A stretch of DNA of 35,291 nucleotides. Origin: a virus. Position numbers and translations under genes: made by a program. How positions within the stretch are numbered: the first letter of the stretch is position 1; every line of letters starts with the position of its first letter. The DNA is taken from UHGV virus genome UHGV-0392586, one strand, 5' to 3'. The notes under the pieces were generated by a model. The model saw only the letters and a list, made by a program, of their open reading frames with translations. It ran no database searches and had not been told where the DNA came from. Shown here one piece after another: positions 1 through 11,589 of this stretch.

Positions 1-782
1 ATAGTGATGTGATGTTAGAGATTTTTAAGCGATCCGGAATCCCGTTTGAAGTGCATAACAGCCATACAACGGCAGATGCGCCACAGACAGTTCGGCATAT
101 CCGGAAGGTATTCCGAGAACTGGAACTGCATGGAATTAGGTGCGAAATAGAAAAACCACGCTATAAAGGAAAATTGATTAGCATGTGGAGCTTAATTCCA
201 GAAAAGCTTATTCCGCCGACAAGAATTGTAAGATACTGTTGCTCTACGCTGAAAGAAACTGGATGTGCAAACCGGTATATCGCAACCGGAGTAAGATGGG
301 ACGAAAGTACTTCCAGATTGAAAAGGGAAGAGTTTGAAAAGCTCGGACAAACCCAAAAAGAGAAAGAAAAATTTACGAAGATAATGCTGATGGAGGATAA
401 CGATGCACGAAGACGGATGAGTGAGCTATGTATGCAGCAGAAAAAAATGATTGTAAATCCTATCATAGATTGGACGCATAGTGATATCTGGGGATATATA
501 AATTCCGAGAAAATAGAGACGTGCGAGCTGTACCAGTGCGGATATGATCGTGTGGGGTGCATTGGTTGCGTGATGGCAGGAAAGAAACGATACAAAGAAT
601 TTGCAGACTTCCCGGGATACAAGAAATTATACATACATGCGTTTGAAAGAATGTTGCAAGAAAGAACAAGGAGAGGAAAAGAGAATACGTGGAAAACAGG
701 AGAAGAAGTTTTTAACTGGTGGATGGAAGACGAAAATATACCAGGGCAAATGAGCATAGAAGACTTTATTACGGAGGAATAG
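1..782 (+). CDS. PAPS reductase family protein (PP-loop ATPase, CysH/DndC-like), C-terminal 259 codons; continuation of 35189..35291
   Basis: Frame joins window end: ...SGGK + DSDVMLEIF; C-terminal CxxC-rich region (CELYQCGYDRVGCIGC) typical of phage PAPS-reductase-like proteins. Confidence 0.75.
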   Translation, partial: SDVMLEIFKRSGIPFEVHNSHTTADAPQTVRHIRKVFRELELHGIRCEIEKPRYKGKLISMWSLIPEKLIPPTRIVRYCCSTLKETGCANRYIATGVRWDESTSRLKREEFEKLGQTQKEKEKFTKIMLMEDNDARRRMSELCMQQKKMIVNPIIDWTHSDIWGYINSEKIETCELYQCGYDRVGCIGCVMAGKKRYKEFADFPGYKKLYIHAFERMLQERTRRGKENTWKTGEEVFNWWMEDENIPGQMSIEDFITEE

Positions 783-3035: not shown

Positions 3036-3241
3036 CAAGAGAGACCATGAAGCGCAGAAAGGAGACGGCAGGAGTCATCCGAAAGATAGATGCACATGAT
3101 ATGGCTAAGCATGAGCCAACAGAGAACGCCAAAAAATGGATGAAAAGAAAGGCGTACTCAGTAGAGGACTGCTTAAGAAAATGGGGAGTAGATACGAAAG
3201 GGAGTGTTGCCAGTGGACAAGAAAACACTGAAAAGGTATAA
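3032..3241 (+). CDS. hypothetical basic protein (69 aa)
   Basis: ATGA overlap with upstream stop; same-strand packing. Confidence 0.45.
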   Translation: MTRETMKRRKETAGVIRKIDAHDMAKHEPTENAKKWMKRKAYSVEDCLRKWGVDTKGSVASGQENTEKV

Positions 3242-3641
3242 ATCGAATAAAGATAGACTTATCCGGATTGAGAATCAGATACAAGAACTCTGTGAACGGG
3301 AATCGACTGTTGTCATGGGGAAGGTAACGGGATCCAGTGTAGATTTTCCGTACACCGAAGTGAGAACGTCTGTCCAAATGTACGATCCTTACGAAGAAGA
3401 GAATATAAGACGGCAGATCAGGAGAAAAGAATCAGACAGACTGCGGATTCTGAAAGAGCAAAAAGAAGTAGAGGACTACATAAATGGGATTGATGATCCG
3501 GAGATTAAGGAGATATTTGAGTTATCGTTTATTGAGGGCAAGAAACAGGATGAAGTTGCGGAGATAGTAAATATTGACAGAAGTTACGTGTCGAAAAAAA
3601 TAAGTGATTATCTCAAACTTTCACACTTTTCACAAAAATAG
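3204..3641 (+). CDS. phage late-gene transcriptional regulator, ArpU/sigma-70 region-4-like HTH (start ambiguous: GTG 3204, TTG 3207 or GTG 3213)
   Basis: C-terminal DDPEIKEIFELSFIEGKKQDEVAEIVNIDRSYVSKKI resembles sigma-70 region 4 / ArpU-RinA-type regulators; positioned immediately upstream of the packaging module. Confidence 0.6.
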   Translation: MLPVDKKTLKRYKSNKDRLIRIENQIQELCERESTVVMGKVTGSSVDFPYTEVRTSVQMYDPYEEENIRRQIRRKESDRLRILKEQKEVEDYINGIDDPEIKEIFELSFIEGKKQDEVAEIVNIDRSYVSKKISDYLKLSHFSQK

Positions 3642-3643
3642 TA

Positions 3644-3652
3644 TGCTATAAT
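3644..3652 (+). promoter_or_regulatory. extended -10 promoter element TGcTATAAT (no good -35; activator-dependent late promoter candidate)
   Basis: TGCTATAAT at 3644-3652 directly after regulator gene stop (3639-3641). Confidence 0.45.
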
Positions 3653-3654
3653 TA

Positions 3655-3683
3655 TTCTAGAACGATTATATATTGTTCTGGAA
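3655..3683 (+). promoter_or_regulatory. dyad TTCTAGAAC-N11-GTTCTGGAA (9-bp RNA stem with one G.U) just downstream of the -10
   Basis: Read directly: ttctagaacgattatatattgttctggaa. Confidence 0.5.
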
Positions 3684-3707
3684 CAATCTTTCTAAACATT
3701 CGGAATA

Positions 3708-3746
3708 CCGCCGGACTTTCACCCTTTCTCGTCTGGCGGTGTTTTT
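3708..3746 (+). terminator. rho-independent terminator CCGCCGGAC-N14-GTCTGGCGG + TGTTTTTAT
   Basis: GC-rich 9-bp stem (1 mismatch) followed by T-run. Confidence 0.65.
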
Positions 3747-3748
3747 AT

Positions 3749-3818
3749 GCGGAGTATAGCATCAGTGGTAGATGTGCGGGGTATCGCCGCGTCCTTGGTT
3801 CGATTCCAAGTGCTCCGC
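3749..3818 (+). ncRNA. tRNA-like element / degenerate tRNA (canonical T-arm CTTGG-TTCGATT-CCAAG, 7-bp acceptor CGGAGTA/TGCTCCG, extra 5' G opposite C73 as in tRNA-His; D and anticodon arms do not fold canonically)
   Basis: Manual folding: T-arm and acceptor fit, but anticodon loop GGUAUCG lacks U33/R37 and only ~2-nt variable region. Confidence 0.35.
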
Positions 3819-4010
3819 TTTGTGATGTAAGATGCAGGCTGCACAGCTGAGGTCTGCGCCGGGAGTGCACACCGGACTTACATTGCAAATGGTACCAAAA
3901 CGCAGATATCCGCAGATCTGCAAAACAAACAAATATAGATTCAGCAATCTATATTTAGTGTCAGTACCCGAGTGCGGATAGGGTAAAGGATGTCAATAAA
4001 AGGCATCCTA

Positions 4011-4084
4011 CCGGACATAGCTCAGTCGGTTAGAGCAGCAGCCTTATAAGCTGTGTGTCACGGGTTCGATTCCCGTTGTCCGGA
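4011..4084 (+). tRNA. tRNA with anticodon UAU (tRNA-Ile, AUA-decoding), 74 nt
   Basis: Cloverleaf: acceptor CCGGACA/TGTCCGG, D-arm GCTC-AGTCGGTTA-GAGC, anticodon arm GCAGC-CTTATAA-GCTGT, variable GTGTC, T-arm ACGGG-TTCGATT-CCCGT, discriminator A. Confidence 0.8.
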
Positions 4085-4244
4085 TTGTGGACTACTGCAA
4101 GGTTCCTCCTTTTTCTTATAAATTTTGATTGTGTATTTGGTTATTTTGGTTTTTGTTGGCGTTATTAATTCTTTCAGCAGTAGTCCTAAATTCTTAGCAT
4201 CCAGAGATGGGTGCTTTTATTATGTTTTAAAGGTGGTGAGTCTG

Positions 4245-4712
4245 ATGGCAAAAGGTAAATATCAAGAGTGGCTAGAGCCGGAAGGCTTGCTGAAGATAGA
4301 GGGATGGGCGAGAGATGGTCTGACGGATGAGCAGATTGCAGATAATATCGGAATTTCCAGAAGCACATTAAATAGCTGGAAAGACAAGTATTCGGACATT
4401 TCGGACACCCTAAAAAGAGGAAAAGAGGTCGTTGATCGTCAAGTTGAGAATGCTTTGCTAAAACGTGCGCTTGGATATGAGTACACGGAAACGACCAGAG
4501 AATATATACCGGAACTCGATGAAATGAAAACTACGAAAAAGGTCACAAAGCAAGTAGCACCGGACACGACAGCACAGATATTCTGGCTCAAGAACCGGAA
4601 ACCGGACAAATGGAGAGATAAGCAGGAATATGAAGATAGGACAGCGATTGAGAAGCTGGATGAAATCTTGAAAGGATTGCATGACAATGCAGCTAAGCAA
4701 AAAGCAGAATGA
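4245..4712 (+). CDS. terminase small subunit (HTH-containing TerS)
   Basis: MAKGKYQEWLEPEGLLKIEGWARDGLTDEQIADNIGISRSTLNSWKDKY typical Firmicutes-phage TerS N-terminus; RBS AAAGGTGGTGAG; directly upstream of TerL. Confidence 0.8.
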   Translation: MAKGKYQEWLEPEGLLKIEGWARDGLTDEQIADNIGISRSTLNSWKDKYSDISDTLKRGKEVVDRQVENALLKRALGYEYTETTREYIPELDEMKTTKKVTKQVAPDTTAQIFWLKNRKPDKWRDKQEYEDRTAIEKLDEILKGLHDNAAKQKAE

Positions 4713-10948: not shown

Positions 10949-11040
10949 GCCTTTTGGTCAGTAGATGAGACCTTAAACAGTCAATTCGTGGCGGTTGGTA
11001 ACACGCCTAAAACTACCTAATGCGAAAGGAGATCGGAAAC

Positions 11041-11589
11041 ATGAAAACAGAATTTTTAAAAGGACTCGGATTGGAACAGGATGCTATTGATAAGATCATG
11101 GCAGAGAACGGGAAAGACATTGCCGCTGAAAAGGCAAAGACAACCAAAGCAGAGGGTGAGCGTGACAATTACAAGAGTCAGCTTGAGACTGCAACGGAAT
11201 CTCTGGAAAAGTTTAAAGATGTTGACCCAACAGCTATGCAGGGCGAAATTGATAAGCTGAATCAACAGCTGAAAGACAAGGATGCTGAGTATGCCGCCAA
11301 AGAAGCGGATCGCATCTTTTCCGACACGATCAAAGAAGCTATCAAGACAGCCGGAGGACGCAATGAAAAAGCGGTCATGGCTATGCTTGATATTGACGCT
11401 TTGAAAGAATCAAAAAACCAGTCTGAGGACATCAAGAAAGCATTGGAAACCGTAAAGGAATCTGATGCTTATTTATTTGGCTCTGATGAGCCTTTTAAGA
11501 ACCCAGTAGGAGCAACTGGCGGCTCTGGCACAGGTGGAGATAATTTCTCGGCGATCAGAGCAGCTATGGGGCTTCCGGCAGAAAAATAA
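11041..11589 (+). CDS. phage scaffolding protein
   Basis: Helical, charged, coiled-coil-like sequence immediately upstream of major capsid gene; RBS AAAGGAG. Confidence 0.7.
   Translation: MKTEFLKGLGLEQDAIDKIMAENGKDIAAEKAKTTKAEGERDNYKSQLETATESLEKFKDVDPTAMQGEIDKLNQQLKDKDAEYAAKEADRIFSDTIKEAIKTAGGRNEKAVMAMLDIDALKESKNQSEDIKKALETVKESDAYLFGSDEPFKNPVGATGGSGTGGDNFSAIRAAMGLPAEK

What the first reader, a model, noticed from the sequence alone, without database searches (positions are those of the whole stretch)
3644..3960. Promoter - 5' hairpin - terminator - degenerate tRNA-like element - stacked perfect hairpins upstream of the late operon, resembling lambda PR'/tR' read-through control
An extended -10 (TGCTATAAT) with no -35 sits right after the ArpU/sigma-like regulator gene. 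It is followed within ~60 nt by a 9-bp hairpin (TTCTAGAAC/GTTCTGGAA) and a strong terminator (3708-3746). Then comes a 70-nt tRNA-like element (3749-3818) with a perfect T-arm and acceptor stem but a non-canonical anticodon arm and a -1G/C73 pair as in tRNA-His. Further downstream are a long-range stem ATGTAAG...CTTACAT (3825-3883) enclosing GC-rich sub-hairpins, the dyad GCAGAT-N8-ATCTGC (3902-3921) and a perfect 11-bp hairpin AAATATAGATT-cagc-AATCTATATTT (3931-3956). A constitutive promoter terminated immediately upstream of late genes suggests antitermination or attenuation controlling late genes and tRNA expression. The tRNA-like element could be a processing signal or pseudo-tRNA.
Basis: partly seen in the sequence, partly recalled or inferred. 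Interest (0 to 1): 0.55.

Follow-up and report, generated by a model that had tools for sequence, protein, structure and literature searches.

The report
Late-gene leader with tRNA-like element
Between the late-gene activator and the packaging genes of this gut-bacterium phage lies a conserved non-coding cassette, in which an activator-dependent promoter runs into a strong terminator that directly abuts a tRNA-derived mini-structure unable to decode, most likely an RNA-cutting signal.

Summary
The window is a roughly 35-kb temperate phage of the Ruminococcus (Mediterraneibacter) gnavus type. The region 3644-4245 is one non-coding cassette, recovered in more than 165 viral contigs and in six isolated phages.

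The promoter is a RinA/Ltr-type late promoter, not a constitutive one. It has an extended -10, no -35, and direct repeats specific to each regulator class.

A strong terminator follows it. In 167 of 167 loci a terminator U-tract ends 2-5 nt before the tRNA-like element, even where the terminator is non-homologous or extra genes have been inserted.

The tRNA-like slot never holds a canonical tRNA. It holds a 70-nt or 72-nt cloverleaf, or a 44/45-nt acceptor/T-arm minihelix with no anticodon arm. The helices show compensatory changes. Diversity matches the true tRNAs and is about five-fold below third codon positions of neighbouring genes.

Best reading: late transcripts must read through the terminator, and the tRNA-derived element is a processing signal for RNase P and RNase Z, not a decoder. 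Read-through control is plausible but untested. No lambda Q homologue was recognised. There is no Rfam family match.

The parts
3204..3641 (+). Late transcriptional regulator gene (RinA/ArpU/Ltr type, sigma-70 region-4-like)
   Evidence: phrog_36 'transcriptional regulator', E = 1.6e-17. Sub-threshold Sigma70_r4_2, DUF1492 and sigma70-ECF matches. Homologues in relatives are annotated 'RinA family transcriptional activator'.
3619..3634 (+). Two direct repeats TTTCACA, 9 nt apart; putative activator boxes
   Evidence: this is the only exact copy of the pair in the window. Each regulator class in relatives carries its own 2-3 repeats at the same place.
3644..3652 (+). Extended -10 TGCTATAAT of the late promoter, with no -35
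   Evidence: A TGnTAnAAT or TATAGT element sits at the same position in all promoter classes.
3655..3683 (+). 5'-proximal stem-loop of the leader
   Evidence: 11 bp, -12.6 kcal/mol. Most other promoter classes have a hairpin of unrelated sequence at the same place.
3684..3701 (+). Conserved single-stranded CU-rich leader segment (CAAUCUUUCUAAACAUUC)
   Evidence: More than 90% conserved columns in 43 distinct leaders.
3702..3748 (+). Intrinsic terminator T1: 15-bp stem, 14-nt loop with conserved CCCUUUCU, U5 tract, then AU
   Evidence: Conserved in 43 distinct leaders. All stem changes are one-sided and wobble-compatible. -22.4 kcal/mol.
3749..3818 (+). tRNA-derived element, 70-nt form: 8-bp acceptor, 5-bp D stem, degenerate anticodon arm, canonical T arm
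3819..3889 (+). Module B: long closing stem enclosing two GC-rich hairpins; a variable module
   Evidence: At least five unrelated sequence types occur at this slot, all closed by a long stem, and the module is absent in L129/L132.
3890..4010 (+). Block C, near-invariant: HP1 3902-3921, HP2 3931-3956, HP3 3965-3985, HP4 3987-4009. The HP1 loop (3908-3914) is complementary to the HP3 loop (3973-3979).
   Evidence: 88 distinct sequences, 96.9% of cells paired, only wobble-type one-sided changes. HP2 shows compensatory changes in L165/L171.
4011..4084 (+). Genuine tRNA-Ile(UAU)
   Evidence: ARAGORN. Rfam tRNA 74 bits.
4084..4191 (+). Long-range stem IR-D (4084-4098/4177-4191) around a U-rich loop with an anti-SD-like CCUCCUUU
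   Evidence: Compensatory ACCGC/GCGGT in L030..
4196..4223 (+). Second terminator-like hairpin T2, directly before the terS ribosome-binding site
   Evidence: -11.5 kcal/mol. Present in most loci regardless of the downstream gene.
4245..4712 (+). terS, first gene of the late operon
   Evidence: phrog_309 terminase small subunit, E = 4.7e-69.

Best explanation
The region is the leader of the phage late operon.

Inferred by analogy with characterised Ltr promoters: the RinA/Ltr-type regulator binds its own direct repeats at the 3' end of its gene. This switches on a host-sigma-A extended -10 promoter at 3644-3652.

Shown by sequence: the transcript starts with a stem-loop and about 85 nt later meets a strong intrinsic terminator, T1. 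No other candidate promoter precedes terS, and plaque-forming relatives carry the same layout. Late genes must therefore be reached by transcripts that read through T1 and later T2.

Inferred: directly after the T1 U-tract comes a tRNA-derived element that keeps only what RNase P, RNase Z and the CCA-adding enzyme recognise. That is the acceptor/T-arm coaxial helix, the T loop and a GG-containing loop. It most likely acts as a processing (punctuation) signal, not as a decoder. Cleavage would separate the terminator-capped leader from the downstream RNA. Together with the true tRNA at 4011-4084, it would release hairpin-capped pieces: module B plus block C, and the late mRNA beginning with the IR-D stem.
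For: Promoter:
- Six or more regulator classes each carry their own repeats about 12 nt upstream of a conserved -10.
- The same architecture is described experimentally for Phi13 Ltr and TP901-1 Alt (PMC13123087).
- The repeat pair is unique in the window. No comparable promoter lies between 3750 and terS.

Terminator:
- T1 is conserved and stable.
- In 167 of 167 loci a terminator U-tract ends 2-5 nt before the tRNA-like element. This holds for the non-homologous terminators of types X and Y, and after inserted hicAB or membrane-protein genes.
- Isolated plaque-forming phages carry the cassette (PMC10072058).

tRNA-like element:
- None of 102 loci has a canonical tRNA in this slot, and 59 of 102 lack the anticodon arm altogether.
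- The long forms score below the Rfam gathering thresholds (23.5-28.3 bits), whereas the true tRNAs score 61-74 bits.
- Minihelix helices are 99.3% paired. Two T-stem pairs changed on both sides, and 0 of 500 shuffles reach the covariation score.
- There are no indels within any form. Diversity is 0.046-0.048, equal to tRNA-Asn (0.047), against about 0.25 at third codon positions of the flanking genes.
- Both the tRNA-like element and the true tRNA are bracketed within 2-3 nt by stable hairpins.
Against: - There are no transcript data, so the start site, termination efficiency and every cleavage are inferred.
- The whole cassette has low diversity. This could reflect recent spread or recombination instead of selection on the element itself.
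- The covariation rests on few events (two pairs in each form), and the sequences are closely related.
- A processing signal does not obviously require a terminator immediately upstream. That constant adjacency is unexplained.
- One contig (L167) has lost the element's 3' half, modules B and C and most of the true tRNA by a T-loop to T-loop deletion. The cassette may therefore be dispensable.
- The covariance model of the minihelix finds no second copy elsewhere in 0.59 Mb of related phage DNA. It is not a general punctuation system.
Confidence: 0.42

Rival explanations
1. Lambda-like read-through control. The promoter-proximal terminator T1 (and T2) blocks late expression until RNA polymerase that started at this promoter is made termination-resistant, either by a phage factor or by the leader RNA itself. 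A short terminated leader RNA accumulates otherwise. This is compatible with the processing model and concerns the terminator only.
For: - In all 43 distinct leaders that contain T1, T1 lies downstream of the only candidate late promoter and upstream of all late genes.
- Up to three terminators lie in series in L031.
- Type-X relatives add a full consensus TTGACA-17-TATACT promoter in front of a strong terminator. This would be harmful in a lysogen unless termination were efficient.
- The leader has a hairpin followed by a conserved single-stranded segment.
Against: - No Q-, N- or other antiterminator family was recognised in the regulator or in the 20 other early proteins scanned.
- The leader hairpin class does not co-vary with the regulator class.
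- RinA/Ltr proteins are described as activators, and the Phi13 Ltr paper read here does not mention a terminator.
- No alternative antiterminator pairing with T1 was seen.
Confidence: 0.3
2. The tRNA-like element is a decaying tRNA pseudogene in a tRNA-gene hotspot and has no function of its own. T1 is simply the terminator of the early operon.
For: - The neighbouring slot holds interchangeable real tRNAs: Asn, Ile, Trp, Lys.
- The anticodon arm is degenerate or deleted.
- Modules reassort freely.
- L167 shows the cassette can be lost.
Against: - Three independent forms all keep the acceptor/T minihelix, with compensatory changes and no indels.
- Diversity equals that of the functional tRNAs and is about five-fold below third codon positions.
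- No locus has a canonical tRNA in this slot.
- The position relative to a terminator is invariant.
Confidence: 0.18
3. The 70/72-nt forms are working non-canonical tRNAs, for example a GCG reader with a tRNA-Sec-like 8/5 branch, as ARAGORN's 'tRNA-Ala(CGC)' call in relatives implies.
For: - ARAGORN calls the 72-nt form tRNA-Ala(CGC).
- The loop GUCGCG(C/A) is kept in the divergent L72d lineage.
- Non-canonical 8/4 tRNAs are known in phages (PMC5389517).
Against: - The window's loop is GGUAUCG, with neither U33 nor a purine at position 37.
- In most 72-nt copies positions 32 and 38 form a G-C pair that closes the loop to 3-5 nt.
- There is no G3:U70, so alanine identity is unlikely (established knowledge of AlaRS).
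- Rfam scores are 23-28 bits.
- More than half of the family has no anticodon arm.
Confidence: 0.06
4. The conserved hairpins (block C and neighbours) are DNA sites, such as a cos/pac packaging site or another protein-binding site, and not RNA structure.
For: - Block C is almost invariant, loops included.
- It contains 10-nt-spaced CGCAGAT repeats and several palindromes.
- It lies just upstream of terS, where cos/pac sites are often found (established knowledge).
Against: - The same cassette precedes at least four different downstream genes: two unrelated terS types, an HNH endonuclease, and in L031 an integrase-proximal ORF.
- Regulator types also differ.
- Stem changes are G-U-type on the + strand only.
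- HP2 and IR-D show compensatory changes.
Confidence: 0.08
5. The roughly 480 nt between T1 and T2 is one large structured non-coding RNA of the ROOL/GOLLD kind, with embedded tRNA-like domains.
For: - It is located in a prophage next to tRNAs, as described for GOLLD and ROOL (PMC5737381).
- It has an exceptional predicted fold (z = -6.4).
- A possible loop-loop contact exists in block C.
Against: - Rfam finds no ROOL, GOLLD or other family even at E <= 10.
- The modules are swapped or deleted independently. This is unlike a single co-folding RNA.
Confidence: 0.07

Closest known systems
RinA/Ltr/Alt-dependent late promoters of Gram-positive temperate phages (80alpha/phi11 RinA, Phi13 P23, TP901-1 P-late)
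   Same: - The promoter lies directly downstream of the regulator gene.
[quoted passage not shown]
- It has a sigma-A -10 and no -35.
- It drives the packaging, structural and lysis genes (PMC13123087; PMC3152322).
   Different: Here about 600 nt of structured RNA separates the promoter from terS, with two terminators, a tRNA-like element and a tRNA. The one Ltr paper whose text was read (Phi13) does not mention a terminator.
Lambda PR'-tR' with Q antitermination (6S RNA); from established knowledge
   Same: A late promoter is followed within about 100-200 nt by a strong intrinsic terminator that must be passed to express one long late operon. A DNA site for a phage protein sits at the promoter.
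   Different: - This promoter looks activator-dependent, not constitutive.
- The regulator is sigma-region-4-like, not a Q family member.
- No pause element or antitermination activity has been shown.
tRNA-like processing signals: MALAT1-mascRNA, and the tRNA-like/pre-miRNA units (TMERs) of murine gammaherpesvirus 68; from established knowledge
   Same: A non-decoding tRNA-like structure is embedded in a longer transcript and followed directly by stable hairpins. Host RNase P and RNase Z define the ends of the neighbouring RNAs.
   Different: - Those examples are eukaryotic or from an animal virus.
- Here the element can be reduced to a 44-nt acceptor/T minihelix and always follows a bacterial intrinsic terminator.
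- Cleavage has not been shown.
tRNA-like domains without an anticodon arm: tmRNA TLD and bacterial/phage YrlA Y RNAs (PMC4201824)
   Same: Acceptor stem, T arm and a GG-containing D-loop analogue, with no anticodon arm.
   Different: - There is no Rfam match to tmRNA or Y RNA.
- The acceptor stem is closed locally instead of by distant 5' and 3' ends.
- There is no Ro-binding helix and no G3:U70.
Non-canonical phage tRNAs with 8/4 branches and tRNA-Sec (PMC5389517)
   Same: Extended acceptor stem (8 bp), long D stem, best weak Rfam match to tRNA-Sec.
   Different: - The acceptor/T branch is 13 bp and there is no long variable arm.
- The anticodon loop is degenerate.
- The score is far below the gathering threshold.
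ROOL and GOLLD RNAs (PMC5737381)
   Same: Structured non-coding RNA in prophages next to tRNA genes.
   Different: No covariance-model match, and a modular, swappable architecture.

Membership tests
RinA/Ltr-dependent late promoter | Lies immediately downstream of, or overlapping, the 3' end of the late-regulator gene and upstream of terS | tested here: met
   The -10 is 3 nt after the regulator's stop codon. terS follows at 4245.
RinA/Ltr-dependent late promoter | Direct repeats upstream of the -10 that serve as regulator sites | tested here: met
   TTTCACA x2 at 3619-3634. Each regulator class has its own repeats at the same position. Binding itself was not tested.
RinA/Ltr-dependent late promoter | Sigma-A type -10 without a usable -35 | tested here: met
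   TGCTATAAT. The TTCACA hexamers lie 12 or 21 nt from it.
RinA/Ltr-dependent late promoter | Activity requires the regulator | not testable with these tools
   Needs reporter or in vitro transcription assays.
Lambda-type Q antitermination module | Intrinsic terminator between the late promoter and the late genes | tested here: met
   T1 at 3702-3748, and also T2. This is a sequence-level prediction only.
Lambda-type Q antitermination module | Q-family antiterminator encoded upstream | tested here: not met
   The regulator matches sigma-70 region 4, DUF1492 and phrog_36. None of the 20 other early proteins scanned matches an antiterminator family. Some ORFs have no match at all.
Lambda-type Q antitermination module | Constitutive promoter producing a short terminated RNA | tested here: not met
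   There is no -35, and regulator-specific repeats are present. Whether the RNA exists is not testable here.
Canonical tRNA | Detected by tRNA finders or a covariance model above threshold | tested here: not met
   No ARAGORN call. The best clan match is tRNA-Sec at 25.4 bits, below both the tRNA gathering score (29) and the tRNA-Sec gathering score (47).
Canonical tRNA | 7-nt anticodon loop with U33 and a purine at position 37 | tested here: not met
   The loop is GGUAUCG. The anticodon arm is absent in 59 of 102 relatives.
Canonical tRNA | 7-bp acceptor stem plus 5-bp T stem | tested here: not met
   8 + 5 pairs, all kept in 10 distinct long forms.
tRNA-Sec / allo-tRNA | Long variable arm, plus a UCA anticodon (Sec) or a 12-bp 8/4 or 9/3 branch (allo-tRNA) | tested here: not met
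   The variable region is 2-3 nt, the branch is 13 bp, and there is no UCA (PMC5389517).
tRNA-like processing signal (RNase P / RNase Z substrate) | Conserved acceptor/T-arm coaxial helix with a T loop, independent of the anticodon arm | tested here: met
tRNA-like processing signal (RNase P / RNase Z substrate) | Actual cleavage at the 5' and 3' borders | not testable with these tools
   Needs end mapping or enzyme assays.
ROOL / GOLLD large RNAs | Match to the family covariance model | tested here: not met
   No such hit at E <= 10 in 3400-4400, nor at gathering score in the whole window.
cos/pac packaging site | Co-occurs with a particular terminase or packaging module | tested here: not met
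   The same cassette sits upstream of two terS types, HNH plus terS, and non-packaging genes.

The most novel reading that the evidence does not exclude
The terminator-abutting tRNA minihelix and the invariant block C form a phage-specific RNA device, not a passive leader. Two versions fit the data.

1. Host tRNA-processing enzymes carve out a stable, roughly 190-nt hairpin-capped RNA (3819-4010). Its near-invariant core, with a possible loop-loop contact between 3908-3914 and 3973-3979, would bind a host factor.
2. The anticodon-less tRNA mimic acts as a decoy or sensor for enzymes that target the tRNA acceptor end or elbow, for example tRNA-directed defence toxins.
Probability: 0.18. Interest if true: 0.75.

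Novelty: new variant of a known kind. Interest (0 to 1): 0.5.

Why it matters
These phages infect R. gnavus, a gut species linked to inflammatory bowel disease. The cassette is present in well over a hundred gut viral contigs and in all sequenced isolates of the group examined.

If the reading is right, three things follow. Late-gene expression in a Gram-positive temperate phage would depend on passing promoter-proximal terminators. A phage would keep a stripped-down tRNA mimic purely as an RNA-processing or regulatory element, a tactic so far documented mainly in eukaryotic systems and a herpesvirus. And the current 'tRNA-Ala' annotations in GenBank records of these phages would be wrong.

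The cassette also offers a compact, testable model of how tRNA genes embedded in an mRNA leader are expressed without destroying the message.

Tried and rejected
- **Rfam.** I searched 3400-4400 at E <= 10, the whole window at gathering score, and five relatives. Only the true tRNAs, sub-threshold tRNA-Sec hits and an unrelated GP20-b RNA appeared.
- **Packaging site.** I rejected the cos/pac reading as the main explanation because the cassette is independent of terminase type.
- **Coding potential.** Short ORFs cross the region, and RG-TP1 gp15 is annotated there. Module swaps and non-triplet indels argue against coding.
- **Second promoter.** I looked for a second copy of the regulator boxes or another late promoter and found none.
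- **T1 loop.** The resemblance of the T1 loop (ACTTTCACCC) to the regulator box does not co-vary with box class, so it is coincidence.
- **Base-pairing targets.** Cassette segments matched other parts of the window only as 10-13-mers at about the chance rate.
- **Distant analogues.** The regulator found one genome hit only. terS relatives in Anaerostipes and Enterococcus phages have no cassette.
- **Additional minihelix copies.** The covariance model found none in 0.59 Mb.
- **Block C covariation.** There were no two-sided changes in the alignment, so it is inconclusive.
- **Memory-only leads, not tested.** The leader hairpin plus GCUUUCCAAACAA resembles the boxB-boxA order of rrn antitermination. 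The acceptor stem plus U73 resembles tRNA-Gly. A T-box-like UGGA in the window's leader is absent from most relatives.
Full report
**Context.** The window is a complete-looking temperate siphophage genome. It runs from early genes to a late regulator (3204-3641), then a 600-nt non-coding stretch, then terS (4245-4712), terL and the structural and lysis genes to about 23.4 kb. An integrase and lysogeny module on the minus strand follow, then more early genes. Its closest public relatives are phages of Ruminococcus (Mediterraneibacter) gnavus. These include phiRg507T2_2, phiRgPS_6, phiRM10 and RG-TP1. The papers describing them mention tRNA genes only in passing (PMC10072058, PMC13435783).

**Observation check.**
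- The extended -10 TGCTATAAT (3644-3652) starts three bases after the regulator's stop codon and has no -35.
- The 5' hairpin (3655-3683) folds as 11 bp.
- The terminator T1 has a 15-bp stem, a 14-nt loop and a U5 tract, at -22.4 kcal/mol.
- ARAGORN does not call the 70-nt element at 3749-3818. Rfam scores it only 25.4 bits, against the tRNA-Sec model, whose gathering score is 47. The genuine tRNA-Ile(UAU) at 4011-4084 scores 74 bits.
- The long-range stem, the GCAGAT dyad and the 11-bp hairpin are all there.
- The whole leader folds much better than shuffled sequence (z = -6.4).

**Comparative material.** Two further scans, using the cores of the short tRNA-like forms, added about 50 loci without that selection bias. 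All of them carry the same cassette in the same order:
1. promoter
2. leader
3. terminator
4. tRNA-like slot
5. variable hairpin module B
6. near-invariant block C
7. a true tRNA
8. a long-range stem (IR-D)
9. usually a second terminator-like hairpin, T2

The modules reassort freely between loci.

**Promoter.** At least six regulator classes occur upstream of the terminator, some unrelated in sequence. Each class has its own two or three direct repeats, 9-11 nt apart:

| Example locus | Repeat |
|---|---|
| window | TTTCACA x2 |
| L013 | ATTTATA x2 |
| L035 | ATTAACA x2 |
| L046 | ATTAAAC x2 |
| L005 | TTGTCCG x3 |
| L004 | ATGTCAGT x2 |
| L017 | TGTTCTAAA x2 |

In the classes checked, the last repeat ends about 12 nt before a TGnTAnAAT or TATAGT -10. 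Three classes with different repeats share an identical -10 and leader, so the repeats travel with the regulator gene. This anatomy matches Ltr-dependent late promoters. [quoted passage not shown] In TP901-1, Alt binds direct repeats at -76 to -32 (PMC13123087; RinA, PMC3152322). The window's repeat pair is unique in the window. No other plausible promoter lies between it and terS. I therefore take 3644-3652 as the late promoter, regulated and not constitutive.

**Leader and terminator.** Most promoter classes place a hairpin of unrelated sequence just after the predicted start site. The type-X leaders (for example L017) have a purine-rich segment there instead. A conserved CU-rich single-stranded segment follows, then T1.
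- T1 shows only one-sided, wobble-compatible changes. This is consistent with an RNA helix on the + strand but is not covariation.
- In 167 of 167 loci with enough upstream sequence, a terminator U-tract ends 2-5 nt before the first base of the tRNA-like element.
- This holds where T1 is replaced by non-homologous terminators (type X, for example L017).
- It also holds where extra genes are inserted between T1 and the element. Examples are hicAB with its own promoter in L031 and membrane-protein ORFs in L129. In each case the insert ends in another terminator that again abuts the element.
- There is no room for a promoter between the U-tract and the element. The element, the tRNA and the late genes can therefore only be reached by read-through.
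- The isolated, plaque-forming phages have this layout, so read-through must occur in vivo.

**The tRNA-like slot.** Among 102 loci the slot holds four forms:

| Form | Loci | Notes |
|---|---|---|
| 70-nt cloverleaf | 10 | the window's form, loop GGUAUCG |
| 72-nt cloverleaf | 33 | ARAGORN calls it tRNA-Ala(CGC), and GenBank annotates it so |
| 44-nt minihelix (A2) | 40 | acceptor stem, 13-15-nt GG-containing loop, T arm |
| 45-nt minihelix (A3) | 19 | same plan, about 60% identical to A2 |

- None is a canonical tRNA.
- The long forms have an 8-bp acceptor stem and a 5-bp D stem. They score 23.5-28.3 bits, against 61-74 bits for the true tRNAs.
- The 72-nt form lacks G3:U70. In most copies its loop can close to 3-5 nt.
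- The minihelix helices are 99.3% paired. Two T-stem pairs changed on both sides, and no shuffle reaches the observed covariation.
- The long forms are 97.3% paired, with two two-sided changes in one lineage.
- No form shows length variation.
- Nucleotide diversity is 0.046-0.048 for the two minihelix forms and the 72-nt form, and 0.017 for the window's 70-nt form. tRNA-Asn is 0.047 and tRNA-Ile 0.015, against about 0.25 at third codon positions of the flanking terS and regulator genes.
- What is conserved is the top half of a tRNA, the part recognised by RNase P, RNase Z and the CCA-adding enzyme (established knowledge). The decoding half is not conserved.

**Hairpins downstream.**
- Module B exists in at least five unrelated sequence types. 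All are closed by a long stem that starts 2-3 nt after the element. It is missing in L129/L132, so it is dispensable.
- Block C (3890-4010) is almost invariant, loops included, in 88 distinct sequences. Its four hairpins show only G-U-type one-sided changes, so RNA structure is compatible but not demonstrated.
- The HP1 loop is perfectly complementary to seven bases in the HP3 loop. The three changes seen at internal positions of that helix keep pairing, and two sequences lose the terminal pair.
It has a conserved 7-bp core and true compensatory changes in L165/L171.
- The same cassette precedes two unrelated terS types, an HNH endonuclease and other genes. It also follows unrelated regulators. 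This argues against a cos/pac site or a regulator site, and for a host factor or an RNA-level role.

**Mechanism.** The best-supported account has three parts.
1. An Ltr-type late promoter.
2. Obligatory read-through of T1 and T2.
3. Excision of the tRNA-like element and the true tRNA by host tRNA-processing enzymes.

Stable hairpins sit within 2-3 nt of every predicted cut and would cap the released pieces. Part 1 rests on sequence anatomy and published analogues. Part 2 is a logical consequence of the layout plus the viability of the isolates. Part 3 is inference.

The arrangement, and the consensus promoter in front of the terminator in type-X relatives, make it attractive. However, no antiterminator family was recognised.

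The rivals are set out separately with what would refute each: a pseudogene, a working odd tRNA, a DNA site, and a single large RNA.

**Comparison and novelty.** The promoter belongs to a known kind. The terminator-then-late-genes logic resembles lambda PR'/tR' in function, but the module is not a member of that system. The non-decoding tRNA-like element followed by hairpins works most like MALAT1-mascRNA or the gammaherpesvirus tRNA-like/pre-miRNA units (from established knowledge). In shape it resembles the anticodon-less tRNA-like domains of tmRNA and YrlA. It matches no Rfam family.

I found no description of this cassette in the two papers on these phages that I checked, nor among the top-ranked hits of three wider literature searches. 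I rate it a new variant of known kinds. It is moderately interesting, and the unexplained invariant pairing of a terminator with a tRNA minihelix is the most intriguing point.

Noticed in passing
window 10956-11019 (+): Rfam GP20-b RNA motif above its gathering score (43.9 vs 36.2 bits), immediately upstream of ORF 11020-11589.
   Followed up: no
window 4011-4084; L012 5753-5827, L017 5058-5132, L041 10237-10311, L129 8076-8150: The true-tRNA slot of the cassette is interchangeable: Asn-GUU in most loci, Ile-UAU in the window, Trp-CCA in others. In some loci an Asn body carries a G34-to-U change that ARAGORN reads as tRNA-Lys(UUU). Discriminator A73 accompanies 5 of 13 UUU copies but only 3 of 116 GUU copies. 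This suggests an identity switch in progress.
   Followed up: partly
L031 8790-9590; L129 6939-7900: Extra genes are inserted exactly between T1 and the tRNA-like minihelix: a hicAB toxin-antitoxin pair with its own consensus promoter in L031, and membrane-protein ORFs in L129. Each insert ends in another terminator that again abuts the minihelix. In L031 the cassette is followed by a small ORF and a tyrosine integrase, not terS.
   Followed up: partly
L167 (around 1352-1400): A deletion joins the T loop of the minihelix to the T loop of tRNA-Ile. It removes modules B and C and most of the tRNA, and leaves a hybrid whose acceptor strands cannot pair.
   Followed up: no
window 4100-4117 (+): The loop of the IR-D stem carries GUUCCUCCUUUUUCUU. 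This resembles the 16S rRNA 3' end and is complementary to the Shine-Dalgarno sequences of terS (4229-4239) and several other genes. CU-rich motifs also occur in the leader (UCUUUC) and in the T1 loop (CCCUUUCU).
   Followed up: no
L001 1565-1637 (MT980836 36041-36113); L002 1477-1620 (PQ571303 5395-5538): Public annotations look wrong. The 'tRNA-Ala' of MT980836 is the non-canonical 72-nt element, which lacks G3:U70 and scores below the Rfam tRNA threshold. The same label appears at this slot in MT980837, MT980838 and MT980840 in the BLAST hit table, but I did not inspect those records. The 47-aa CDS gp15 of RG-TP1 runs across the leader, T1 and the minihelix.
   Followed up: partly
L017 4700-4770 and similar type-X loci: Type-X relatives have, besides the regulator boxes and a TATAGT -10, an overlapping full consensus promoter TTGACA-17-TATACT with TG. 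It sits about 55 nt upstream of a strong terminator that abuts the minihelix.
   Followed up: no
window 9-782 (+): The first ORF of the window matches phage 'phosphoadenosine phosphosulfate reductase' families (phrog_424, E = 6e-30), a PP-loop enzyme class often tied to nucleic-acid modification.
   Followed up: no
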